DNA of 64,000 bases from positions 32,001-96,000 of IMG/VR virus record IMGVR_UViG_2526164662_000021. One strand, given 5' to 3'. This document shows positions 11,850 through 26,422 of the stretch, piece after piece. The first letter of the stretch is position 1; the number at the start of each line of letters is the position of its first letter. The position numbers and the translations under genes are program-made. The stretch is from a virus. Taxonomy: Duplodnaviria; Heunggongvirae; Uroviricota; Caudoviricetes. The notes below the pieces were generated by a model. It saw only the letters and a list, made by a program, of their open reading frames with translations. It ran no database searches and was not told the DNA's origin.

Positions 11850-12071
11850 ATGGTTAATGCCAATCCTTGCGCACGCCCAGAATTCATCTGGCGTTTCTAT
11901 TCCTGTAAAAAACACCACTATCACTTCGTTATCGCAGCAACTGAAGACGAAGCACGCTCTCAATTGCCTGATGGCCCCTGCATTTTTACTGCCCGTTTTT
12001 CAACTAACTCGCGCAATTCACTTAGTTACTGGAGCCTCCCCTTCTCTGCCGACGTTCAGGGGGGTTTATGA
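11850..12071 (+). CDS. icd: Icd-like cell division inhibitor
   Basis: 73-aa ORF (PEFIWRFYSC...HYHFVIAATEDEARSQL); stop overlaps ant start (ATGA); paralogue at 61645-61866. Confidence 0.65.
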   Translation: MVNANPCARPEFIWRFYSCKKHHYHFVIAATEDEARSQLPDGPCIFTARFSTNSRNSLSYWSLPFSADVQGGL

Positions 12072-13111
12072 AAAAACCTCTCGTCACCCGTAATGACATA
12101 GCCGAAGCGATCGCCCTGCATACTGCCTGTATACCGACACGGGAGATCCCCGGCGCAATTGCCAACTATTTCATGATAACCAGGCGTTTTTATACCCGAA
12201 CAGATAAGGCTGTGATCAACAGGCTACTGATAGCCGAGATCAGGGATTATTTGATTGAACAAGGACGTCTACGTTACGCAACGGTGGCAGCAGAAATGAG
12301 AAAGGAGGCACATAGAATGACCAGTAATAATTTGAATGTTAAAAAACCAGCACCTGTTGCTTCAGCAACGCCAGCACCAGCCGTGAATGTCATCCCCACC
12401 ACCGGAGACACAATCGACAGCCTGACACTGTTAAAGATGGTCAATGAAGCGCGTAAGTTATGTGGGGAACCAGAGGTTCGGAACAACAAATTCATCGAAA
12501 AAATACTCGACGAATTAGAAGGTGAGGACGGTTACACAAAAAGTGCAACCGTGCCGCCAGGTGGCGGTACGCCTATGGTTGTCATAACCATGACCTACAA
12601 ACAAGCCCTGCGAGTCGCCGCGCGCGAATCGAAAGCGGTCCGCCGTTCGCTGATCGACAAACTGGAAGAATTGCAGCAGGCAAACTCCCCTACCCCATCG
12701 ATCCCCCAAACATTACCAGAAGCCCTACGCCTGGCTGCCGAGTTGGCAGAACAGAAATTGCAGCTGGAACAACAGCTGGTGGCCGCAGCCCCTAAAGTCG
12801 ATTTTGCCGACCGGGTATCAGTGGCTAATGGAATCCTGATCGGGAACTTTGCAAAGGTCGTTGGACTTAAGCAAAACGCCCTTTTCTCATGGTTGCGCCA
12901 GAACGGCATTCTCATGGCTTTTGGTGCGCGCAAAAACGTACCGCGCCAGCAGTACATTAACGCCGGGTATTTCACGGTGAAAGAAGTGGTGCTGGATGAT
13001 GAAAATGGCTACCAGATACGGCTGACGCCCCAATTAACGGGTAAAGGCCAGCAGTGGTTAACTCGCAAGCTACTTGATGCTGGTTTGTTAAAACCAGTAG
13101 CAATAGGTTAA
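12068..13111 (+). CDS. ant: Antirepressor Ant with C-terminal KilAC domain
   Basis: 347-aa ORF translationally coupled to icd; C-terminus AAAPKVDFADRVSVANGILIGNFAKVVGLKQNALF...GYFTVKEV... matches KilAC antirepressor domain. Confidence 0.7.
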   Translation: MKKPLVTRNDIAEAIALHTACIPTREIPGAIANYFMITRRFYTRTDKAVINRLLIAEIRDYLIEQGRLRYATVAAEMRKEAHRMTSNNLNVKKPAPVASATPAPAVNVIPTTGDTIDSLTLLKMVNEARKLCGEPEVRNNKFIEKILDELEGEDGYTKSATVPPGGGTPMVVITMTYKQALRVAARESKAVRRSLIDKLEELQQANSPTPSIPQTLPEALRLAAELAEQKLQLEQQLVAAAPKVDFADRVSVANGILIGNFAKVVGLKQNALFSWLRQNGILMAFGARKNVPRQQYINAGYFTVKEVVLDDENGYQIRLTPQLTGKGQQWLTRKLLDAGLLKPVAIG

Positions 13112-13274: not shown

Positions 13275-14075
13275 ATGCAACAAACATTCAATGCGGATAT
13301 GAATATATCAAACCTTCATCAAAATGTCGATCCTTCAACCACTCTGCCTGTTATTTGTGGTGTTGAAATTACGACCGACCGCGCTGGCCGTTACAACCTT
13401 AATGCTCTACACAGAGCGAGCGGACTCGGTGCCCATAAAGCGCCAGCTCAATGGCTAAGAACGCTGTCAGCCAAACAGCTCATCGAAGAGCTTGAAAAAG
13501 AAACTATGCAGAATTGCATAGTTTCGTTCGAAGGCCGTGGCGGCGGCACTTTTGCCCATGAATTGCTCGCTGTGGAGTACGCAGGCTGGATTTCTCCCGC
13601 GTTTCGGCTGAAGGTAAACCAGACATTTATCGACTATCGAGCCGGAAGATTACAACCTGCTATTCCGCAGAGTCTCCCTGAAGCTCTCCGTTTGGCTGCC
13701 GACCTGGCAGAGCAAAAGCAACGGCTGGAGCAAAAAATGCTTATGGATGCACCTAAAGTCGAATTCGCCGAACGCGTTGCTACCGCCAGCGGGGTTCTAA
13801 TCGGCAACTATGCCAAAGTGCTCGGCCTGGGCCAAAACTATCTCTTCACCTGGTTGCGTGATAACGGAATTCTGATCGCAACCGGTGAACGCAGGAACGT
13901 CCCCAAACAAGAATACATATCCCGTGGGTATTTCACCCTTAAAGAAACCGTGATCGATACAAGCAATGGAAGCAGGATTTCTTTCACGACTCGTATAACC
14001 GGCAAAGGTCAGCAGTGGCTTATGAAGCGATTGCTTGATGCTGGTGTGCTGGTGCCTGTCGCGGCGACGCGCTAA
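13275..14075 (+). CDS. kilA: KilA (KilA-N domain plus KilAC domain)
   Basis: 266 aa, same length as P1 KilA; N-terminal KilA-N-like segment (ICGVEITTDRAGRYNLNALHRASGL...LLAVEYAGWISPAFRL); C-terminal KilAC-like segment. Confidence 0.75.
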   Translation: MQQTFNADMNISNLHQNVDPSTTLPVICGVEITTDRAGRYNLNALHRASGLGAHKAPAQWLRTLSAKQLIEELEKETMQNCIVSFEGRGGGTFAHELLAVEYAGWISPAFRLKVNQTFIDYRAGRLQPAIPQSLPEALRLAADLAEQKQRLEQKMLMDAPKVEFAERVATASGVLIGNYAKVLGLGQNYLFTWLRDNGILIATGERRNVPKQEYISRGYFTLKETVIDTSNGSRISFTTRITGKGQQWLMKRLLDAGVLVPVAATR

Positions 14076-14104
14076 CAGACGTAGTAAGAACCACCAGCAT
14101 TGTA

Positions 14105-14950
14105 ATGCTGGCTAAAGTCACTTTCCTGAGCTGTATAACGATGAGCGATTTTACTTTTTCTGGCTATGAATTGGCCTGCTTTGTAACACACTCCGGTCTA
14201 TCCCGTAGCGCCGGGCATATCCTGTCGCAATGTGCAAATCTCGCGGCAACAACCAGTGAATACTTCATTCACAAGCCTCACCGCCTGCTCGCGGCAGAAA
14301 CTGGTTATAGCCAATCAACCGTCGTTCGTGCATTCCGTGAAGCTGTAAACAAAGGAATCCTGTCTGTAGAGATTGTTATCGGCGATCACCGTGAACGTCG
14401 CGCTAACCTGTACCGGTTTACACCATCCTTTTTGGCCTTCGCACAACAAGCCAAAAATGCGCTGATTGAAAGCAAATTAAAGATCTCTTCAGCGGCAACC
14501 AAGGTTAAAGCTGTTCTCGCTAAGACATTGGCTTTATTTAATTTTTTATCCACACCCCCATGTCAAAATGATACCCCCTCCCCCTGTCAGGATGACGTGG
14601 CAATAAAGAATAAGAAGTCACAAGTTAAAAAAACAAAAAGATCAGTTTCCGGCGGTGCCGGAACGACCAGACTCAAAAAATTGACTTCATGGATCGCTGA
14701 GGCAAAAGCAAAGGCTGACAATCTGCGGTTATCCAAAAAACGCGCTCAAAAACATGAGTTCAAGCAGAAAGTAGAGGCGGCAGCGCGGAAATATGCTTAC
14801 CTGAAGGACAAGCGTTCTCCTGATATTGGCGGGATATCAAACTTCGATAATCTGCCGCATTGCATGACGGTAAACGAAGCTCTTAATGCGGTTTTAGCCA
14901 AAAATAAAGATAACGAACAATGGGGTATACCGGCAGGATTCAGAGGGTGA
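14105..14950 (+). CDS. repL: Lytic replication protein RepL-like
   Basis: 281 aa, same length as P1 RepL; directly downstream of kilA; HTH-like region (YSQSTVVRAFREAVNKGIL). Confidence 0.65.
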   Translation: MLAKVTFLSCITMSDFTFSGYELACFVTHSGLSRSAGHILSQCANLAATTSEYFIHKPHRLLAAETGYSQSTVVRAFREAVNKGILSVEIVIGDHRERRANLYRFTPSFLAFAQQAKNALIESKLKISSAATKVKAVLAKTLALFNFLSTPPCQNDTPSPCQDDVAIKNKKSQVKKTKRSVSGGAGTTRLKKLTSWIAEAKAKADNLRLSKKRAQKHEFKQKVEAAARKYAYLKDKRSPDIGGISNFDNLPHCMTVNEALNAVLAKNKDNEQWGIPAGFRG

Positions 14951-15212
14951 TAGATTGCTCTAATCTGGAGTCACCTGGCGTTTTCAGTTTGAGGTCGGAG
15001 ATGCAATCTGATTTTTTACAGTTAGCGATCGCTTTTGCAGGGCATCTTTGAGACATATCCATATATAAAAACCCAAAGCCAGATCAAAACTTGTACTGAT
15101 AAAAACACAGCTAACCATCACAACTTGTAACGTTTATAATGAGTAAAAGAGTGATACATTGCTACTTTTACATATTTTTGACTCAATTCATGGATAGTAA
15201 TGGAGATGCATA

Positions 15213-16268
15213 ATGACTTATGCTGGCACACAAACAGCAGATAACGCCGGGGATACCATGAAATCGTATGCTATTTGGAATAATAAAGGTGGCGTAGGAA
15301 AGACCTACTTATCTTTCGCTATGGCCTGTGAATACGCAAGGCAAAATCCAGAAAAGCGTATTATTTTTGCAGATATGTGTCCGCAGGCTAACTTATCTGA
15401 AATATTGCTCGGCGGTAACGGTACTGGTGCTGCTAACCTCGCGAGCTTAATTCAACAACGAAAAACTGTCGGTGGGTACTTTGACAGAAGAACTCGCAGC
15501 CCCCACATGCTTACCGGTTCAGAAACAAGTTTCTTAATTCATGTCTCTGAAATTAACGGGCATGTCCCTGACAATGTATTTTTGATTGCAGGCGACCCAA
15601 GCCTGGAAGTTCAGGCGCAAGTAATCAATCAGTTAAGCAGCGTAAACTTACCAGTTGACTCATGGAAAAGCATCCACCTGTGGCTACGAGATTTGCTTGT
15701 TGCATGTGCACAACAACAAGGTATCGAAGAAACCATTTGCTTTATTGATTGCAACCCCAGTTTCTCTGCCTATACCGAACTATCACTGATAGCAGCAAAT
15801 GCAATTATAATACCTTGCTCAAGTGATGGTTCTTCGGCTCGAGCAGTGGATAACCTAAGCCAGTTGGTTTATGGCGTTGGAGTACAAAACGATTATCGTT
15901 CTGTTAACTTTTACGATCGGTGTCAACAGTTTGGTCTAGCGGTTCCTGTCATTCATTCTCTAGTTTTTAATCGTTCGACAGAGTATGACAAACGAGCAAG
16001 TAAAGCGTTTTCGGCAATGTTCGACGAAATCAGGGATAGAGCTGAAAATCTGCGGACGAATAAACCAACAGCGTTCCAAGGCGGAAATTTAAAAACGTTT
16101 ACTGTGCCAGATAACCATTCCGTAGCTATAGTATCTTCCCATCTAGGAAGACCTCTATTTGATATAAAACCCGGCAGATATCAGATCCATGACACTGAGC
16201 CACAAATCAATAATGAACCATTAGAAAGATATGGTGCAGCAATTGAACGTCTTGTTCAGAGTTTATAG
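15213..16268 (+). CDS. Orphan ParA/MinD-family P-loop ATPase
   Basis: Deviant Walker A AIWNNKGGVGKT; ParA-like FADMCPQAN and Walker B-like FIDCNPSFS; alternative start at 15258 (MKSYAIW...); no adjacent ParB. Confidence 0.6.
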   Translation: MTYAGTQTADNAGDTMKSYAIWNNKGGVGKTYLSFAMACEYARQNPEKRIIFADMCPQANLSEILLGGNGTGAANLASLIQQRKTVGGYFDRRTRSPHMLTGSETSFLIHVSEINGHVPDNVFLIAGDPSLEVQAQVINQLSSVNLPVDSWKSIHLWLRDLLVACAQQQGIEETICFIDCNPSFSAYTELSLIAANAIIIPCSSDGSSARAVDNLSQLVYGVGVQNDYRSVNFYDRCQQFGLAVPVIHSLVFNRSTEYDKRASKAFSAMFDEIRDRAENLRTNKPTAFQGGNLKTFTVPDNHSVAIVSSHLGRPLFDIKPGRYQIHDTEPQINNEPLERYGAAIERLVQSL

Positions 16269-16293
16269 TGGCTTATCTCAGTCATAATGGCTG

Positions 16294-16329
16294 AAAAAAG
16301 GCTGCAACAGAGGTTGCAGCCTTTTTTAT
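16294..16329. terminator. Bidirectional terminator between convergent genes
   Basis: AAAAAGGCTGCAAC-agag-GTTGCAGCCTTTTTT. Confidence 0.6.
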
Positions 16330-16338
16330 AAAATTACA

Positions 16339-16626
16339 TTAACAGATTGGTAGCGATAGTAAATTATTATTCCATCGATTGTCTGCATACGTTCTAATAA
16401 ACTGCCTTCCACCATTACCAGGATTAACGACCCCAACTTCTACACGATTACCTGCATTATCTGTTACATAGAATGTATGGAGATTATTATCAATAGCATT
16501 AATCACCTGCTCAACAGTCCATTTCCCATTGCCAGTATTAAATTGAGGACTTCCCACATGAGTAATATGCTCATGGATTGATTGCGAGCCGGAGAGGGTA
16601 ATGCAAGTAATGCGTACATCAGCCAT
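16339..16626 (-). CDS. DUF3892-like small protein
   Basis: Start MADVRITCI... with AAGGAAG RBS; motifs HITHVG, GKWTVEQVINAI, FYV, NNLLSLP recalled as DUF3892-like; the upstream extension in the ORF track is Cys-rich and probably spurious. Confidence 0.5.
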   Translation of the reverse strand: MADVRITCITLSGSQSIHEHITHVGSPQFNTGNGKWTVEQVINAIDNNLHTFYVTDNAGNRVEVGVVNPGNGGRQFIRTYADNRWNNNLLSLPIC

Positions 16627-16916
16627 ATATACTTCCTTTATTCTATAGATTATAGGAATTGTGCCGCCTAAAAAACAAACAGCACAATAACAATAAAGAA
16701 ACATACACACAACAAAAACTAACGCTATTTATTGATAGATTTGCCTGATGAATACTAGCTCTCTTTGCTACCTAGCACTCAAACAAATAACAGAAGAAAG
16801 CCCCAGATAACATTACGCGTCCGGCAAGACGCTTAACATTAATCTGAGGCCACATCTATGCTTAGCATACGTAGATTAACCCTCTCCCCTTTTAAGGGGT
16901 AAGGAATTTTTTACTG

Positions 16917-17549
16917 CTATGCCGCCTTTCCAGTTATGGATTCAGCGACCAGAACAACCCCATGCTTACTTCGATCTGGGTGTTCACTCCATATCTCGGA
17001 TTCAGGAATACTTACCCCGTCATAGCAAACACGTTCGCCGTCAAACGGGTAATACTGAGCGGCATCGGTGTCGAGGATAAACACTTTTAGCTCGGAAGAG
17101 CGACGGGCGATGTGTTGCCAAAGAGCTTTTCCACCTTCGTATTGCTCATTATCACTGAGCAAAACAACACCAGCTTTTGAGGCTACGGTTTCGTAAACAA
17201 AAGTAGCTAAACCTACATCCCGGACAGTTCCATCAACCACAATACCTTCAATCTGGGCAACATCGCTATCCTCCCAAAACTTCCTTACCAGTACGCCTTC
17301 AAGCTGCGGACGACGTTGAAGTTCAAGAGTAGCGACAACCTTATGGCGCATATCACCATCGATAACAGAAGGCGCAGCCTCTATTACAGCTGCAAATGGG
17401 GTTTTGGAATCCCATATAACCTGGTAAAGCACACCCTGGATGGTAACTCCGTCCAGGATCGAAAATCGACGAGCGACAGTACCCGGGGAGTACGACATTG
17501 GAATCACAGCCATTTTAGAGTCCCCCTTTAACAGTACAGGCACAAACAT
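16917..17549 (-). CDS. Hypothetical protein (possible baseplate/morphogenesis)
   Basis: 210-aa ORF; probable start at internal Met (MAVIPMSY...). Confidence 0.4.
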   Translation of the reverse strand: MFVPVLLKGDSKMAVIPMSYSPGTVARRFSILDGVTIQGVLYQVIWDSKTPFAAVIEAAPSVIDGDMRHKVVATLELQRRPQLEGVLVRKFWEDSDVAQIEGIVVDGTVRDVGLATFVYETVASKAGVVLLSDNEQYEGGKALWQHIARRSSELKVFILDTDAAQYYPFDGERVCYDGVSIPESEIWSEHPDRSKHGVVLVAESITGKAA

Positions 17550-17640
17550 CTACCTCAATAATTGTAGTTTATTAGAACATTAATAATCTAACATAAAACT
17601 CCAGACAATGTTATCGATGCATTTTTATATAAAATAGTTA

Positions 17641-17665
17641 TAAAAAAAGCTCCCGTAGGAGCTTT
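17641..17665 (-). terminator. Rho-independent terminator
   Basis: On the minus strand AGCTCC-tacg-GGAGCT followed by TTTTTTT, downstream of the gene ending at 17685. Confidence 0.55.
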
Positions 17666-17684
17666 AAAATACAAGGGATGACTC

Positions 17685-18194
17685 TTAATCCCAATCAATC
17701 CAGTTGTAGACGATACGAAGTGACGGGCGCACAGCGGCAGTCACATCTTCGGTACTAAAGTCGATTGCATCACTGTAGATTTTGCAGTCCAACATTTCAA
17801 TTGTTGTAGCAGCTTTTGTCACAGCGTTAACCCCGGAAGATTTGGATTCAGGGGTCGCAGCCATCGTGATATCAACATAGTCCTTCGCCGCAATGCGATC
17901 CTTAATGAACTGAAGAATATCACCTTCGATAGTCTCCACGCACTGGACCTGGATTTCCCCAGAGTTTCGAATTGGACCGTGCTGGTTGAACTTCACACCA
18001 TTCGGACCATAGTCCTCCACATCCTCGCGGGTCATTTCAGGGATTTGCGACGTGCGAACCAGTACGCTGATATCTTCATGGCCAGCAAAAGTGAGCTGGA
18101 ATTCAGAAGATACCAGTCGTTCACCTTTGGCCGCGTTGGCAGTATAGCGGCCCTTAATAAATTTACGGTTTCCCTTAGTGTTATTGTGCCCCAT
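17685..18194 (-). CDS. Virion structural protein (possible tail tube)
   Basis: 169-aa ORF, last gene of the head/sheath operon before a terminator. Confidence 0.35.
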   Translation of the reverse strand: MGHNNTKGNRKFIKGRYTANAAKGERLVSSEFQLTFAGHEDISVLVRTSQIPEMTREDVEDYGPNGVKFNQHGPIRNSGEIQVQCVETIEGDILQFIKDRIAAKDYVDITMAATPESKSSGVNAVTKAATTIEMLDCKIYSDAIDFSTEDVTAAVRPSLRIVYNWIDWD

Positions 18195-23229: not shown

Positions 23230-24231
23230 TTAAGGCTTCGGCTTTTTATCGAGGCTCTTTCTAAGGATATGCCCAATCATCCTGTCGAGTTCTTCCTGTA
23301 GCTCTTTTGAAAGTCGATTAAACTCATAAGAAAATGCACGGCCTTTCACGCGCTTCCTTGCAAAGCGATCCTTGTCCTCAAATTTCCATAATTCAGTAAC
23401 TACGGACTTATCTTTAGAACCTTTATCCGTGAGTAGTGAGGCTTCCTTTGTTATCAAGCGCAGGATTTTATTTTTAACTTCATCTTCGGCCATTTCTTCA
23501 ATGGATAAGATGTCGTTTATTTCCGGGGATATATTTTGAATAAGCTGATCAAACTCTAAATTCTTGTTCCCCATTTCGTCGCCAACAGCACAAAGCGTTT
23601 TGTAGTCCGAAAAGGTTAATTCCGACTGCACAGGGAAAAGGGCGACTAATTCTTCCGGAGCACTCGCTGCCTGGAGAGCACGCGTGACCTTCGCCTGAGA
23701 CAGCCCTTCTTTGGCTGCAATATCCTTCTGACTCATCCCATCATTTTTCATTCGCATCAAACGCAGACCTATTTCTCGAATGCTGTGCTGCAATGCTGTC
23801 TGAACGTCTTTCGCTAAATTTTGCGCTTCCTGAACGCTGATCTCCTGGTCCGTGACTAAAACCCGCAACCCTACGTTCTCTAAGATGGCAGAAGCTCGAC
23901 GCCGGGAACCATCCAAAATTTCAATTTTCCCTGTTGCCCGTCTAACACCTATTGCAGGGTAAAATTGCTGATGCTTAATAGTGCTTCGGATACTTTTTAA
24001 TGATTTTGGCGTAAGAGATGCCTGGTCACGCCCGTTGTTATGCTGATCAACAAAGGTATCGCTTTCTACCTGGTTCGGAGGTATTACCTCTTCAATAAAT
24101 GTGGCCTGGCGACCAGTTGATAACTTGAATACCTGCTCGACTCGATCGCCAGAGGCTGAAGAACTATCAAATCCGCTTAATATTGAAGGATTAAGGGTTC
24201 GCCCAATTGTTGGTCTGTTTTTCTTTGACAT
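23230..24231 (-). CDS. parB: Partition protein ParB
   Basis: 333-aa ORF (MSKKNRPTIGRTLNPS...), downstream of parA and upstream of parS; HTH region GLSQAKVTRALQ; length as recalled for P1 ParB. Confidence 0.9.
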   Translation of the reverse strand: MSKKNRPTIGRTLNPSILSGFDSSSASGDRVEQVFKLSTGRQATFIEEVIPPNQVESDTFVDQHNNGRDQASLTPKSLKSIRSTIKHQQFYPAIGVRRATGKIEILDGSRRRASAILENVGLRVLVTDQEISVQEAQNLAKDVQTALQHSIREIGLRLMRMKNDGMSQKDIAAKEGLSQAKVTRALQAASAPEELVALFPVQSELTFSDYKTLCAVGDEMGNKNLEFDQLIQNISPEINDILSIEEMAEDEVKNKILRLITKEASLLTDKGSKDKSVVTELWKFEDKDRFARKRVKGRAFSYEFNRLSKELQEELDRMIGHILRKSLDKKPKP

Positions 24232-24247
24232 GGGGGTTTCTTACTCC

Positions 24248-25444
24248 TCAGTTAGATCTGATAAATTCAATACGGTCAAAAACTGCTTTAGCAAAATCTT
24301 CCGCGGCAATTCGCGCGTTCTTCAATGCATCAGCACTACCAACATACGTTGCCGGGTTAGCTGAAATAACAGTGTCAAAAGACTCGCCGCAACGTTCAAA
24401 ACCGTCAAGGCGAGGGAGGACGACATCGAGCATATCCCCACCGAACACTTCTTTAGCCAGGCTATGGCAATACTTATGATCTGCCTTGTTACTCAACTTG
24501 GACATAAAACCAATGTTAGTCGCAAGCTGGCACTCGCAGCCTTCATCCGAAATGAGTTTCACCAACTCAGGAAGGCGGGCAACGTATTTAAGCGATGAGT
24601 GGAAATCGACAGTTGCTGGCGGCAGAGGTGTAAACAGTATATTGGCCGAGGCCAAAGCATTTTTCAGGAAGGCGTCAAGGTGAGGACCACTATCAACGAG
24701 GATAAAATCATAATCGCTCTTCAGCTTATCAATCACATTTTCTTTCAGGACAGCATGGATGTTCTGACCCGGTAGATGCTCATTGCACAGCTCTCTCCAA
24801 TCGGATGCAATAAAGGCATCGTCAATCGACGCAGGCATAACGTCAACCCCAGGTACAACAGAAGGAACAATAAACTCCTCTAACAGCTCTTCACGGCTTA
24901 CATTCTGCAACATAGCCTGTGCAGATGTTGCGTTTACGATACCAATAGAGTGTTTATGGCTTAAAAACATCGTTGCTGAAGATTGCGGATCAAGGTCAAT
25001 AACCAGAATCCTTAAATCTTCCATCAGAAGATGAGGGTGAGCACGCATTGCATGCGCCAGAGAAACCGTCGATACAGTTTTTGACACACCGCCTTTAAGA
25101 TTGGAGATGAAAATCACATACGCTTCGCTGTAGCGATCCCGGTATTTTGGCACTCCGCGATGTTCATATATGTCAATGATGTTCTGAATTGACATCGCAT
25201 ATTTCATTGAAGAGCCAGCAGGGCGCTTATCGAAAACATAACCCTTTTCTTCCATTTCACTTACAGCATAGTCAACGTTCGCTCGAGTCAGTAGAGGCAA
25301 TTTTGCCAGTGCCGCTTTCGCATAGACCTGGTAAAACTCGTTCGCGTGTAGCTCATCCTTTTGCAACTGTACTTGTTCAGTCAGAACATTGAGCATTCTG
25401 TTTGCTCTTTGAGCAACCTTGTGAAGCTGGCTGGAATCACTCAT
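24248..25444 (-). CDS. parA: Partition ATPase ParA
   Basis: 398-aa ORF (MSDSSQLHKVAQRANRMLNV...); Walker A NLKGGVSKT; N-terminal extension typical of type Ia ParA. Confidence 0.9.
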   Translation of the reverse strand: MSDSSQLHKVAQRANRMLNVLTEQVQLQKDELHANEFYQVYAKAALAKLPLLTRANVDYAVSEMEEKGYVFDKRPAGSSMKYAMSIQNIIDIYEHRGVPKYRDRYSEAYVIFISNLKGGVSKTVSTVSLAHAMRAHPHLLMEDLRILVIDLDPQSSATMFLSHKHSIGIVNATSAQAMLQNVSREELLEEFIVPSVVPGVDVMPASIDDAFIASDWRELCNEHLPGQNIHAVLKENVIDKLKSDYDFILVDSGPHLDAFLKNALASANILFTPLPPATVDFHSSLKYVARLPELVKLISDEGCECQLATNIGFMSKLSNKADHKYCHSLAKEVFGGDMLDVVLPRLDGFERCGESFDTVISANPATYVGSADALKNARIAAEDFAKAVFDRIEFIRSN

Positions 25445-25612: not shown

Positions 25613-26422
25613 TTATTTGTTAAGAGCTGCGAATAATCGTTCGAAATCGATAGTATATATAGCACGCGTAAGCGCCGGAAGTTCAGCCTCAAAGTACCCG
25701 TGTCGATCGTAAAAGAAGGGACCAAAGAGCGAGGAATGTTGGATTCTACTTCGCCCCAGCCCGGACACACAGTTAAGTCCATTACCGGATAAAAGGCTAA
25801 AAAACTTCTCTGGATTATCGTGGTAAAGCTGGGAATCAATGGTGGCAGTTAACTCTTCCATAGGGAAGCACACCCGCCCAGTCTCCCAGGAATATTTAGT
25901 CCGAAGCGTAAACATCGCTTTCAGCAATTCACATTGAGCGCGGATCGCGTCAGGTTCATAGCCAGATATGGAGACATAAGCCACATCCCTCATTCCTGCG
26001 TCATCTTTGAAAGTCACGATAGAAGTAACATCCAGTTCTTTTTCGAAAGAGCGAGCAGCATCTACTGGACGCTGAAGTAAATCATTCGACTTAATCCGCT
26101 CAAGAATCCCTCCCCACATATCATTTAGGTATTCGATATGAGCCAAAACCTTATCAAGACACTCTCGTGTAAACCATTCAGTATGCCCGCCACCGGCGCT
26201 TTTCTCCCACGGCGCATTCCAGGGGAAAAAGGTTGCGTGTAAAGCCCGCTCAAGATTAACCATTGCCAAACGCGTACCACGATAGACCCGTGAAAGCGCA
26301 AAATCGGGACTCACTTGTAGCCCTTTAAACCGTGCCAATGGACCACATGAAATGCCGATTTTAAAAGTATCTCCGTTCTCCGGCACCAGAACGTAGAGGT
26401 AGTGTTGTTTCTCTTCTTGCAT
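25613..26422 (-). CDS. T5orf172/GIY-YIG-like domain protein (hypothetical)
   Basis: N-terminus YLYVLVPENGDTFKIGIS...LERALHATF...GGHTEWF resembles the T5orf172 (GIY-YIG-like) fold; about 170-aa C-terminal region of unknown function; own terminator. Confidence 0.55.
   Translation of the reverse strand: MQEEKQHYLYVLVPENGDTFKIGISCGPLARFKGLQVSPDFALSRVYRGTRLAMVNLERALHATFFPWNAPWEKSAGGGHTEWFTRECLDKVLAHIEYLNDMWGGILERIKSNDLLQRPVDAARSFEKELDVTSIVTFKDDAGMRDVAYVSISGYEPDAIRAQCELLKAMFTLRTKYSWETGRVCFPMEELTATIDSQLYHDNPEKFFSLLSGNGLNCVSGLGRSRIQHSSLFGPFFYDRHGYFEAELPALTRAIYTIDFERLFAALNK

What the first reader, a model, noticed from the sequence alone, without database searches (positions are those of the whole stretch)
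15213..16626. Orphan ParA-like ATPase and convergent DUF3892 gene next to the lytic replicon
A ParA/MinD-family ATPase (KGGVGKT, ParA-like DPQ and Walker B motifs) lies directly downstream of kilA-repL with no ParB or centromere partner. The genuine parAB-parS system is 8 kb away. It converges on a small DUF3892-like gene across a bidirectional terminator. By position these may be the poorly characterised replication-linked genes of P1, whose functions are not established.
Basis: partly seen in the sequence, partly recalled or inferred. Interest (0 to 1): 0.45.

Follow-up and report, generated by a model that had tools for sequence, protein, structure and literature searches.

The report
Phage-defence cargo cassette in P1 plasmid
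The two genes are real, but they are not P1's replication-linked genes nor a broken partition system: they are a swapped-in 1.75-kb cargo cassette whose ParA-like ATPase is a distant relative of a single-gene anti-phage protein (GiPD474) described in 2025, beside an unrelated small DUF3892 gene of unknown function.

Summary
A 351-aa ParA/MinD-fold ORF (15213-16268, +) and a 95-aa DUF3892 ORF (16339-16626, -) converge on a strong bidirectional terminator, just after kilA-repL of a P1-like phage-plasmid. The true parA/parB lie about 7-9 kb away.

The genes occupy the rlfA/rlfB position but are not homologous to RlfA or RlfB. This slot varies between P1-like plasmids. It holds rlfAB in about 100 plasmids, a short hok/mok-type filler in about 300, an IS in RCS47, and this cassette in 42.

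The "DPQ" motif is actually D-M-C-P-Q. An invariant Cys replaces the catalytic Asp of Soj/MinD/ParA, and this marks the whole clade.

The clade is partner-less. In 80 genomic loci there was no ParB, no ParG-like gene, no DUF3892 and no centromere repeats. It travels as solitary cargo:
- directly downstream of cI in lambdoid prophages
- as a passenger in IS1595-family elements
- on small plasmids

The protein is 36% identical end to end (E 7e-78) to GiPD474, a Gifsy-1 single-gene defence against Felix O1, T4 and Alf5. Its mechanism is unknown.

DUF3892 is an independent neighbour. P1's RlfA/RlfB themselves match the PADLOC defence candidate PDC-M04. Verdict: a new member of a recently described kind, of moderate interest.

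The parts
14954..14970 (+). C1 repressor operator (equivalent of P1 Orlf/Op55) just after the repL stop codon. It belongs to the conserved P1 backbone, not to the cassette.
   Evidence: The core ATTGCTCTAAT occurs 6 times in the window against 0.05 expected. It aligns with the annotated Orlf operator of NC_005856.
15053..16797 (.). The 1.75-kb accessory cassette as a whole, occupying the variable slot between repL and the pmgF-like/bplB genes.
   Evidence: Homology to cassette-less P1 relatives ends near 15053 and resumes near 16798. The whole unit recurs at 98.7-99.9% identity in 38-39 E. coli genomes, always on P1-like plasmids and never on a chromosome.
15083..15129 (+). Two copies of a 13-nt direct repeat ATCA[A/C]AACTTGTA, 34 nt apart, followed by a perfect -10 hexamer TATAAT (15137-15142). 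This may be the promoter/operator region of the ATPase gene.
   Evidence: Repeat found; sequence read. The consensus promoter scan found nothing here, so the assignment is inference only.
15213..16268 (+). Solitary ParA/MinD-fold ATPase of the GiPD474 family (351 aa). It has the deviant Walker A KGGVGKT (residues 25-31), D-M-C-P-Q (54-58) with Cys56 at the catalytic-Asp position, and Walker B FIDCNPS (177-183).
   Evidence: The start at 15213 is supported by a conserved GGAG Shine-Dalgarno sequence and ATG shared with the 85-90% relatives. Most distant homologues start at the equivalent of Met16 (15258).
16294..16327 (.). Bidirectional intrinsic terminator shared by the two convergent genes.
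16339..16626 (-). Stand-alone DUF3892 protein (95 aa). Invariant residues are C8, H23, D82, N88-L89-L90 and C95. Function unknown; others have predicted a link to defence.
   Evidence: Pfam hit. 112 homologues, all ~90-99 aa single-domain. Alignment A8. The model (pLDDT 84) has no significant solved structural neighbour.
16633..16658 (.). Palindrome TTCCTTTATTCTATAGA/TCTATAGATTATAGGAA just upstream of the DUF3892 start. On the minus strand it contains TATAAT, so it may be a promoter/operator.
   Evidence: and the sequence. Function is inferred.
16798..16886 (+). Remnant of the 5' part of a hok/mok/sok-type locus. It marks the right-hand junction of the cassette.
   Evidence: 88-99% identical to mok/mokW regions of P1-like and Stx phages. 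Aligns to MH422554 upstream of mokW. Only a sub-threshold Rfam sok hit (20 bits against 59).

Best explanation
The region is a 1.75-kb cargo cassette that replaces rlfA/rlfB in the variable slot downstream of repL in a P1-like phage-plasmid. It holds two independent genes, apparently each with its own promoter, that share a bidirectional terminator.

The ParA-like gene belongs to a widely mobile clade of solitary ParA/MinD-fold ATPases that includes GiPD474, a Gifsy-1 prophage protein. GiPD474 alone blocks Felix O1, T4 and Alf5. The window's protein most likely does the same kind of job: expressed from the resident plasmid prophage, it protects the lysogen, and so the plasmid, against some incoming phages.

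Proposed mechanism (inferred, not shown): the protein binds ATP through its deviant Walker A motif and forms the nucleotide-sandwich dimer typical of the fold. The water-activating Asp is replaced by an invariant Cys, and no ParB-like activator exists. It therefore probably does not cycle like a partition ATPase. It may instead act as a slowly hydrolysing ATP-dependent switch or clamp that engages a phage-specific target after DNA entry.

The DUF3892 gene is a separate accessory gene of unknown function. It is possibly also conflict-related and is linked to the ATPase only by one shared acquisition.
For: Cassette and slot:
- Homology breakpoints lie at ~15053 and ~16798.
- Alternative occupants of the slot are rlfAB (~100 plasmids), a short hok/mok-type filler (~300), an IS in RCS47, and this cassette (42 plasmids).
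- The cassette is in 39 of 5426 E. coli genomes, on plasmids only.
- P1 RlfA/RlfB match the PADLOC candidate system PDC-M04A/B (1e-95, 1.3e-51). The slot is thus used for defence-type cargo.

Family membership:
- 36% identity and 59% positives over 342 aa with GiPD474, E 7e-78, colinear end to end.
- GiPD474 was identified as P0400. Both knockout-primer arms translate to its N- and C-termini. Its length (361 aa) and GGVGKT at residues 29-34 match the paper.

Shown function of GiPD474 (PMC12724215):
- Deletion restores Felix O1 plating.
- Expression in E. coli K-12 gives ~5-log drops for T4 and Alf5.
- The gene is highly transcribed in the lysogen.

Shared context:
- Relatives 85% (Serratia), 87% (metagenomic contig) and 71% (Pseudomonas phi297) identical to the window protein lie directly downstream of cI on the same strand.
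- So do the Klebsiella phage homologue, the Salmonella homologue and GiPD474 itself.

Solitary nature:
- In 80 genomic loci from many bacterial phyla and archaea there is no DUF3892.
- No recurrent small partner was found among 133 flanking small ORFs; the largest family spans 3 loci.
- Neighbours are heterogeneous, and ParB was not among the recurrent families listed in the Pfam census.
- DNA homology with the closest relatives covers only the ORF plus ~40 nt of leader.

Mobility as a single gene:
- Three identical 2272-bp copies occur in one genome. They have 23-bp terminal inverted repeats, an 8-bp target duplication and a convergent IS1595-family transposase.
- About 10 loci lie next to IS1595-type transposases and about 7 next to IS1-like ones.

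Cys hallmark:
- The query's ADMCPQAN aligns with wild-type Soj VDLDPQGN and with the hydrolysis-dead D-to-A mutants crystallised with ATP.
- D-x-C-P-Q is present in 119/120 close homologues, 80/80 loci and 87/93 parsable cluster representatives, and also in GiPD474.
Against: - Identity to GiPD474 is only 36%, and the two belong to different subclades. Transferring the function is an inference. No member of the window's own subclade has been tested.
- In the window the gene is not next to a repressor gene, and a C1 operator lies 259 bp upstream. It might therefore be expressed in lytic growth rather than in the lysogen.
- No strong sigma-70 consensus promoter was found upstream.
- GiPD474's mechanism is unknown, and its authors' ATPase assignment rests on prediction only.
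- My reading of Cys56 rests on alignment to Soj mutants, not on biochemistry. A thiolate could still support hydrolysis.
- Known defence genes are only modestly frequent among the genomic neighbours (roughly 5-7 of 61 downstream neighbours). Many loci lie among housekeeping genes.
- PADLOC 2023 has no model for either cassette gene.
Confidence: 0.6

Rival explanations
1. The ATPase is a plasmid-competition (incompatibility) factor like ParI of Pseudomonas putida. It would be an orphan ParA that poisons the ParABS partition machines of rival plasmids or phage-plasmids, rather than blocking lytic phage infection.
For: ParI is an orphan ParA on a genomic island. It destabilises IncP-7 plasmids and needs its Walker A motif to do so (reviewed in PMC9178275; PMC8544851). 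The window protein is orphan, sits on a partition-dependent low-copy plasmid, and carries a Cys where D-to-A mutants of ParA-type proteins are hydrolysis-dead. That change is what one would expect of a dominant-negative ParA.
Against: The only tested family member acts against virulent phages T4, Felix O1 and Alf5, which have no ParABS. Similarity to P1's own ParA is confined to the Walker A region (30% over 69 aa). Most family members sit in integrated prophages, IS elements or chromosomes of very diverse phyla and archaea. The ParI sequence could not be retrieved, so relatedness is untested.
Confidence: 0.12
2. The ParA-like and DUF3892 proteins form a two-gene system, as sensor and effector or as regulator and ATPase, and need each other.
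For: They are always together in P1-like plasmids (42 records each at >=95% identity). The unit is conserved at 98.7-99.9% identity. They share a terminator. DUF3892 has been predicted by others to be defence-associated and fused to effectors.
Against: All P1 copies trace to one acquisition, so their co-occurrence counts as a single event. DUF3892 was absent from 80 genomic ParA-like loci and from the five contexts examined for close relatives. GiPD474 works alone in E. coli. Homology with the nearest relatives ends at the ATPase stop codon. DUF3892 homologues sit in other contexts: next to an FRG-domain gene matching PDC-S15 in Salmonella, and at a satellite/prophage junction in E. coli. The genes are convergent, not an operon.
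Confidence: 0.1
3. The genes are replication-linked or partition functions of the P1 lytic or plasmid replicon. The ATPase would be a back-up or specialised segregation ATPase acting on the repL replicon.
For: Position immediately after kilA-repL and a C1 operator. ParA/Soj fold with an intact deviant Walker A and Walker B.
Against: No adaptor gene and no centromere repeats. The catalytic Asp is replaced. The cassette is absent from about 94% of P1-like plasmids that share the flanks, and from all P1-type phage records searched. There is no homology to RlfA/RlfB. The same gene occurs in integrated prophages and IS elements, which need no partition.
Confidence: 0.04
4. The ATPase is an accessory factor of transposition, a target-selection or regulatory ATPase like IstB, TnsC or MuB, that has been carried into phages and plasmids.
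For: It lies inside the inverted repeats of an IS1595-family element present in three identical copies. It is also adjacent to IS1595- or IS1-type transposases in about 17 of 80 loci. Two loci show the gene alone between inverted repeats.
Against: Most loci, and all phage and P1 contexts, lack any transposase. No flanking inverted repeats occur in the window. Its orientation is convergent with the transposase, so it is not in its operon. GiPD474 confers phage resistance by itself.
Confidence: 0.06

Closest known systems
GiPD474 (STM474_RS13505), the Gifsy-1 prophage single-gene phage-defence protein of Salmonella Typhimurium 4/74 (Bosma, Noireaux & Bowden, Appl Environ Microbiol 2025, PMC12724215)
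   Same: End-to-end homology (36% identity, E 7e-78). Similar size (351 against 361 aa). Same ParA/MinD fold, KGGVGKT and D-x-C-P-Q hallmark. Same solitary, partner-less organisation. The window protein's closest relatives share GiPD474's position directly behind the prophage repressor gene.
   Different: It belongs to a different subclade: the window's clade is 55-60% conserved across phyla, against ~35% to GiPD474. It is carried by a P1-like phage-plasmid in the rlf slot rather than in a lambdoid immunity region. It has a DUF3892 neighbour. Its function is untested. The published survey covered only homologues of >=70% identity in Enterobacteriaceae and did not include this clade.
Partition and positioning ATPases of the ParA/MinD family (Soj, P1 ParA, McdA, MinD)
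   Same: Fold, deviant Walker A with signature lysine, and Walker B. ATP-sandwich dimerisation is expected by homology.
   Different: No ParB, ParG or McdB-type activator and no centromere. The catalytic Asp is replaced by an invariant Cys. There are about 90 extra residues. Sequence identity is 14-20% to solved structures, and similarity to P1 ParA is limited to the Walker A region.
ParI, the orphan ParA of a Pseudomonas putida KT2440 genomic island (Miyakoshi et al. 2012, as reviewed in PMC9178275)
   Same: An orphan ParA-family protein on horizontally acquired DNA that acts against another mobile element and needs its Walker A motif.
   Different: ParI targets plasmid partition, not phage infection. 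Its sequence relationship could not be tested here.
P1 rlfA/rlfB ('replication-linked functions'), which match PADLOC candidate system PDC-M04
   Same: Same genomic slot immediately after repL and the Orlf operator. Both are accessory, swappable cargo.
   Different: No sequence or domain similarity: DUF3800 plus an unassigned protein, against ParA-like plus DUF3892.
IS1595-family insertion sequences that carry passenger genes. My recollection that ISfinder lists such an ISNwi1 subgroup was not checked here.
   Same: Homologues of the ATPase are passengers inside such an element, with 23-bp inverted repeats beginning GGnGATTAT and an 8-bp duplication.
   Different: The window copy has no transposase and no flanking inverted repeats.

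Membership tests
GiPD474-type solitary ParA-like defence ATPases | Full-length sequence homology to GiPD474 | tested here: met
   36% identity and 59% positives over 342 of 351 aa, E 7e-78. Colinear in alignment A9. GiPD474's identity as P0400 was verified from primer arms, length and motif position.
GiPD474-type solitary ParA-like defence ATPases | ParA/MinD/Soj fold with Walker A GGVGKT near the N-terminus | tested here: met
   KGGVGKT at residues 25-31. Foldseek best hits are ParA/Soj/McdA, E ~1e-11.
GiPD474-type solitary ParA-like defence ATPases | D-x-C-P-Q: Cys at the catalytic-Asp position. This hallmark is proposed here, not by the paper's authors. | tested here: met
   Window has DMCPQ and GiPD474 has DACPQ. 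Present in 119/120, 80/80 and 87/93 family members.
GiPD474-type solitary ParA-like defence ATPases | Single gene with no conserved partner | tested here: met
   Homology with the nearest relatives is limited to the ORF.
GiPD474-type solitary ParA-like defence ATPases | Location in a prophage immunity region beside cII/cro/repressor | tested here: not met
   In the window the gene follows repL in a P1-like plasmid. Its 85% and 87% relatives do meet this feature.
GiPD474-type solitary ParA-like defence ATPases | Confers resistance to phages when expressed alone | not testable with these tools
   Shown only for GiPD474 (PMC12724215).
ParABS/type I partition ATPase | Cognate centromere-binding adaptor (ParB or ParG-like) encoded alongside | tested here: not met
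   Downstream lies a terminator, then a convergent DUF3892 gene. No recurrent small or ParB-like neighbour was found in 80 loci.
ParABS/type I partition ATPase | Centromere-like iterated repeats nearby | tested here: not met
   Only one two-copy 13-nt repeat in 14900-17000.
ParABS/type I partition ATPase | Catalytic Asp in the D-x-D-P-Q (switch I / Walker A') motif | tested here: not met
   Cys56 aligns with Soj D44. P1 ParA in the same window has IDLDPQ.
ParABS/type I partition ATPase | Deviant Walker A KGGxxK[ST] with signature lysine | tested here: met
   NNKGGVGKT, invariant across the family.
P1 RlfA/RlfB | Sequence homology to RlfA (DUF3800) and RlfB | tested here: not met
   BLASTP E 0.54, and no alignment. 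The Pfam families differ.
P1 RlfA/RlfB | Position between repL/Orlf operator and pmgF-bplB | tested here: met
DUF3892 (PF13031) | Match to the Pfam model above its gathering score over the full domain | tested here: met
   57.3 bits against 22.3, covering model positions 1-71 of 71. 112 homologues all carry PF13031.
DUF3892 (PF13031) | dsRBD/HPF-like fold, as stated in bioRxiv 10.1101/2025.01.14.632903 | tested here: inconclusive
IS1595-family passenger-carrying IS | Terminal inverted repeats and target duplication flanking the gene, with a DDE_Tnp_IS1595 transposase | tested here: not met
   The window has none; the best inverted repeat is 8 nt. The feature is met in L069-L071.
ParI-type orphan ParA incompatibility factor | Sequence relatedness to ParI and destabilisation of ParABS plasmids | not tested
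Only its Walker A (KGGVGKS) is quoted in PMC9178275.

The most novel reading that the evidence does not exclude
The D-x-C-P-Q clade is a universal, self-sufficient one-protein immune module found across bacterial phyla and in archaea. Its members would be naturally hydrolysis-attenuated ParA dimers that, on meeting a phage-specific cue, lock onto DNA or a replication or packaging complex. IS1595/IS1-type elements, prophage immunity regions, small plasmids and P1-like plasmids would spread the module as single-gene cargo. In that reading the repL-proximal 'rlf' slot of P1 is a dedicated defence-swap site, and the 20-year-old 'replication-linked' label of rlfA/rlfB is a misnomer.
Probability: 0.25. 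Interest if true: 0.7.

Novelty: new member of a known kind. Interest (0 to 1): 0.42.

Why it matters
- It removes a tempting but wrong reading, that of an orphan partition or replication gene, from a much-used model phage-plasmid family.
- It places the gene in a defence family first shown experimentally in late 2025, whose mechanism is still open.
- Three observations go beyond the GiPD474 paper as read here:
  1. The family reaches far beyond Enterobacteriaceae prophages, into many phyla, archaea, IS passengers and small plasmids.
  2. An invariant Cys at the catalytic-Asp position gives a direct mechanistic handle (C-to-D and Walker A mutants).
  3. The P1 slot behind repL exchanges defence-type cargo, with P1's own rlfA/rlfB matching the candidate system PDC-M04.
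- P1-like plasmids are common in clinical and livestock E. coli. Their cargo may therefore affect phage susceptibility and phage-therapy outcomes.

Tried and rejected
- PADLOC (2023) and NCBIfam scans of both cassette proteins gave no defence model and only sub-threshold ParA-type hits.
- A search for a conserved partner failed. phmmer with DUF3892 against all ORFs of 85 loci found nothing. BLAST and phmmer clustering of neighbours found only transposases recurring. Pfam and PADLOC censuses of 193 neighbours showed heterogeneous housekeeping, restriction-modification and IS genes.
- A search for informative domain fusions found none. Ten longer family members (449-595 aa) carry no extra Pfam domain.
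- A search for inverted repeats around the window gene found none, so I rejected a transposon origin for this copy.
- tblastn of DUF3892 against phage records found no match.
- Rfam over 14000-18000 gave only sub-threshold hits.
- The consensus promoter scan found no convincing promoter for either gene.
- Literature searches for ParA passengers in IS1595 elements and for defence hotspots in P1-like plasmids turned up nothing specific.
- Co-folding of the two proteins was not attempted. The structure tool takes one chain, and the genomic evidence already argued against an obligate pair.
Full report
**What is there.** The window is a P1-like phage-plasmid. It is 100% identical over the region to E. 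coli and E. fergusonii plasmids such as NZ_CP080229. Downstream of ant1-like, kilA (13275-14075) and repL (14105-14950) lie two convergent ORFs.
- The first (15213-16268, +, 351 aa) hits Pfam AAA_31 and CbiA, and PHROG 164 'ParA-like partition protein'.
- The second (16339-16626, -, 95 aa) is a full-length DUF3892 domain.
- Between them sits a perfect A6-stem-T6 hairpin, strongly stable on both strands.
- P1-type parB and parA are at 23230-25444.

One correction is needed: the 'DPQ' motif is D-M-C-P-Q.

**Not rlfA/rlfB, but a swap at their slot.** Reference P1 has RlfA (DUF3800) and RlfB between repL/Orlf and pmgF. Neither aligns with the cassette proteins. Homology to other P1 relatives runs through the C1 operator (core at 14954; 6 copies in the window against 0.05 expected). 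It ends near 15053 and resumes near 16798 in a remnant of a hok/mok locus.

Alternative occupants of the slot:

| Occupant | Where found |
|---|---|
| rlfAB | ~100 PLSDB plasmids |
| short hok/mok-type filler | ~300 PLSDB plasmids |
| an IS | phage RCS47 |
| this cassette | 42 PLSDB plasmids |

The cassette occurs in 39 of 5426 complete E. coli genomes. It is always whole, always on ~95-100-kb plasmids and never chromosomal. No record in the phage collection carries it. P1 RlfA and RlfB match the PADLOC candidate system PDC-M04A/B (1e-95 and 1.3e-51). The slot therefore looks like a site for defence-type cargo, not for replication functions.

**The ATPase family.** Homologues number in the thousands. 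They are unusually conserved, at 55-60% identity, across Proteobacteria, Acidobacteriota, Planctomycetota, Chloroflexota, Cyanobacteria, Spirochaetota, Patescibacteria and several archaea. The AlphaFold model (pLDDT 88) is a ParA/Soj/McdA fold with about 90 extra residues.

HMMER alignments place the query's ADMCPQAN on wild-type Soj VDLDPQGN. They also place it on the D-to-A mutants that were crystallised as ATP complexes: 2bek, H. pylori Soj D41A, and 8ray. The McdA D38A-ATP complex was among the Foldseek hits. Cys56 thus occupies the catalytic-Asp position. D-x-C-P-Q holds in 119/120 close homologues, 80/80 genomic loci and 87/93 parsable 50%-cluster representatives. P1's own ParA keeps IDLDPQ and resembles the orphan only around Walker A.

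**It is solitary cargo.** In 80 genomic loci no DUF3892 is present. Neighbours are heterogeneous: housekeeping genes, restriction-modification genes and transposases. No small ParG/ParB-like partner recurs. Longer family members have no added domains. The gene moves by itself in three ways.
- **In IS elements.** One Vicinamibacterales genome has three identical 2272-bp copies. Each is bounded by 23-bp inverted repeats and an 8-bp duplication, and contains the ATPase gene plus a convergent IS1595-family transposase. About 10 loci adjoin IS1595-type transposases and about 7 adjoin IS1-like ones. Two loci show the gene alone between inverted repeats.
- **In lambdoid prophages.** The gene lies directly behind cI on the same strand in Pseudomonas phi297 (71% identity), a Serratia prophage (85%), a metagenomic contig (87%), Klebsiella phage ST11-VIM1phi8.2 and a Salmonella element.
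- **On small plasmids.** It is cargo on 3-5-kb plasmids such as the ColE1-type (ColRNAI) Klebsiella plasmid examined.

DNA homology between the window and its closest relatives covers only the ORF and ~40 nt of leader. This includes a conserved GGAG-ATG that supports the 15213 start.

**Link to a tested protein.** A full-text search for AAA_31 plus defence found Bosma, Noireaux & Bowden 2025 (PMC12724215). GiPD474 is a 361-aa ParA/MinD/Soj-like protein with GGVGKT at residues 29-34. It lies in the Gifsy-1 immunity region next to cII, cro and the repressor. The paper reports:
- Its deletion restores Felix O1 plating.
- In E. coli K-12 it reduces T4 and Alf5 plating by about 5 logs.
- T7, SP6, LPST153, Jbel, VpaE1 and S16 are unaffected.
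- It is highly transcribed in the lysogen.
- Its mechanism is unknown.

I identified GiPD474 as P0400. The two lambda-Red primer arms translate to its N-terminus (DNGRVEATDRPTE) and C-terminus (ALESDVSTVVKC), and both length and motif position fit. Its context is cro-like, CI-like, then the gene. The window protein aligns with it end to end at 36% identity, E 7e-78, and GiPD474 also has D-A-C-P-Q. The published homologue survey used a >=70% identity cut-off within Enterobacteriaceae, so the window's subclade lies outside it.

**DUF3892.** Homologues are ~90-99-aa stand-alone proteins with invariant C8, H23, D82, NLL and C95.
- The 73% E. coli homologue sits at a junction between a satellite-like block and a lambdoid tail module.
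- The 68% Salmonella homologue precedes an FRG-domain gene that matches PADLOC PDC-S15, in an island with a large helicase and a DUF4917 gene.
- Others have predicted DUF3892 to be conflict-related.
- The model (pLDDT 84) has no significant solved neighbour.

Its link to the ATPase rests on a single acquisition in the P1 lineage.

**How it most likely works.**
- Shown: fold, motifs, orphan status, mobility, homology to GiPD474, and GiPD474's phenotype.
- Inferred: the window protein protects its lysogen against some phages.
- Further inferred: it acts as an ATP-bound sandwich dimer. With Cys in place of the water-activating Asp and no activator protein, it would turn over slowly and act as a switch or clamp on a phage-specific target after adsorption. 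GiPD474's authors also suspect a post-adsorption step.

The narrow and patchy phage range, with T4 blocked but not S16 or Jbel, argues for recognition of particular phage factors. Rivals are listed with their tests: ParI-like plasmid incompatibility, an obligate ParA-DUF3892 pair, a replication or partition role, and a transposition helper.

**Verdict.** This is a real feature that was partly misread. It is a new, distant member of a recently described single-gene defence family, placed in a P1 cargo slot next to an uncharacterised DUF3892 gene. Interest is moderate. The protein kind is already published, but three leads remain testable: the Cys hallmark, the pan-phylum and IS-borne spread, and the reinterpretation of the rlf slot.

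Noticed in passing
L004 (NC_005856.1 51740-52908; P1 rlfA-rlfB): Reference P1's 'replication-linked' RlfA and RlfB match the PADLOC phage-defence candidate PDC-M04A (1e-95) and PDC-M04B (1.3e-51). Their long-standing functional label may be wrong.
   Followed up: partly
window 25613-26422 (-): A 269-aa ORF between parA and the repA region is annotated as a GIY-YIG nuclease family protein in the identical plasmid NZ_CP080229. It may be a homing-endonuclease-type insertion in the plasmid maintenance region.
   Followed up: no
window 16917-17549 (-): A 210-aa ORF (PHROG 7522). Only residues 16-78 resemble P1 PmgF (43%); the rest has no assigned family. It replaces the 98-aa PmgF of reference P1.
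   Followed up: partly
window 16798-16886: A truncated remnant of the 5' region of a hok/mok/sok-type locus. It is 88-99% identical to mok regions of P1-like and Stx phages, but the hok reading frame is missing. It is evidence of successive replacements at this slot.
   Followed up: partly
L069, L070, L071 positions 5883-8154 (Vicinamibacterales MAG OZ250139.1): Three identical copies of a 2272-bp IS1595-family element. Each carries the ParA-like gene as passenger, has 23-bp inverted repeats starting GGnGATTAT, and is flanked by an 8-bp target duplication (ATCGGAAA).
   Followed up: yes
L039 (~5784-7350) and L079 (~5760-7700): The ParA-like gene alone is bracketed by a perfect 20-bp (L039) or a 42-bp (L079) inverted repeat with no transposase inside. 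These may be non-autonomous mobile units.
   Followed up: no
L093-L096 positions 5001-6357 (Salmonella enterica contigs): A DUF3892 homologue (68% identity) is followed on the same strand by an FRG-domain gene matching PADLOC PDC-S15. The pair lies in an island with a 1020-aa DEAD/ResIII helicase, a DUF4917 gene and TrbL, and may be a two-gene unit.
   Followed up: partly
L088-L092 (E. coli contigs), gene at 5001-5288 in L088: A DUF3892 homologue (73% identity) lies between a truncated lambda-type major capsid gene with a tail module and a block encoding its own capsid E, decoration protein, AlpA, SSB and D5_N primase. This looks like a capsid-encoding satellite inserted into a prophage.
   Followed up: no
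window 12068-13111 and 13275-14075: Two adjacent KilA-C/ANT-domain genes, ant1-like and kilA. Only kilA has the KilA-N domain, as in P1.
   Followed up: no
L098 (NZ_CP079191.1, 4991-bp ColRNAI plasmid of Klebsiella): A 38%-identical ParA-like gene is cargo on a small high-copy ColE1-type plasmid, together with DUF6530 and DUF2251 genes. Such a plasmid has no need for partition.
   Followed up: partly
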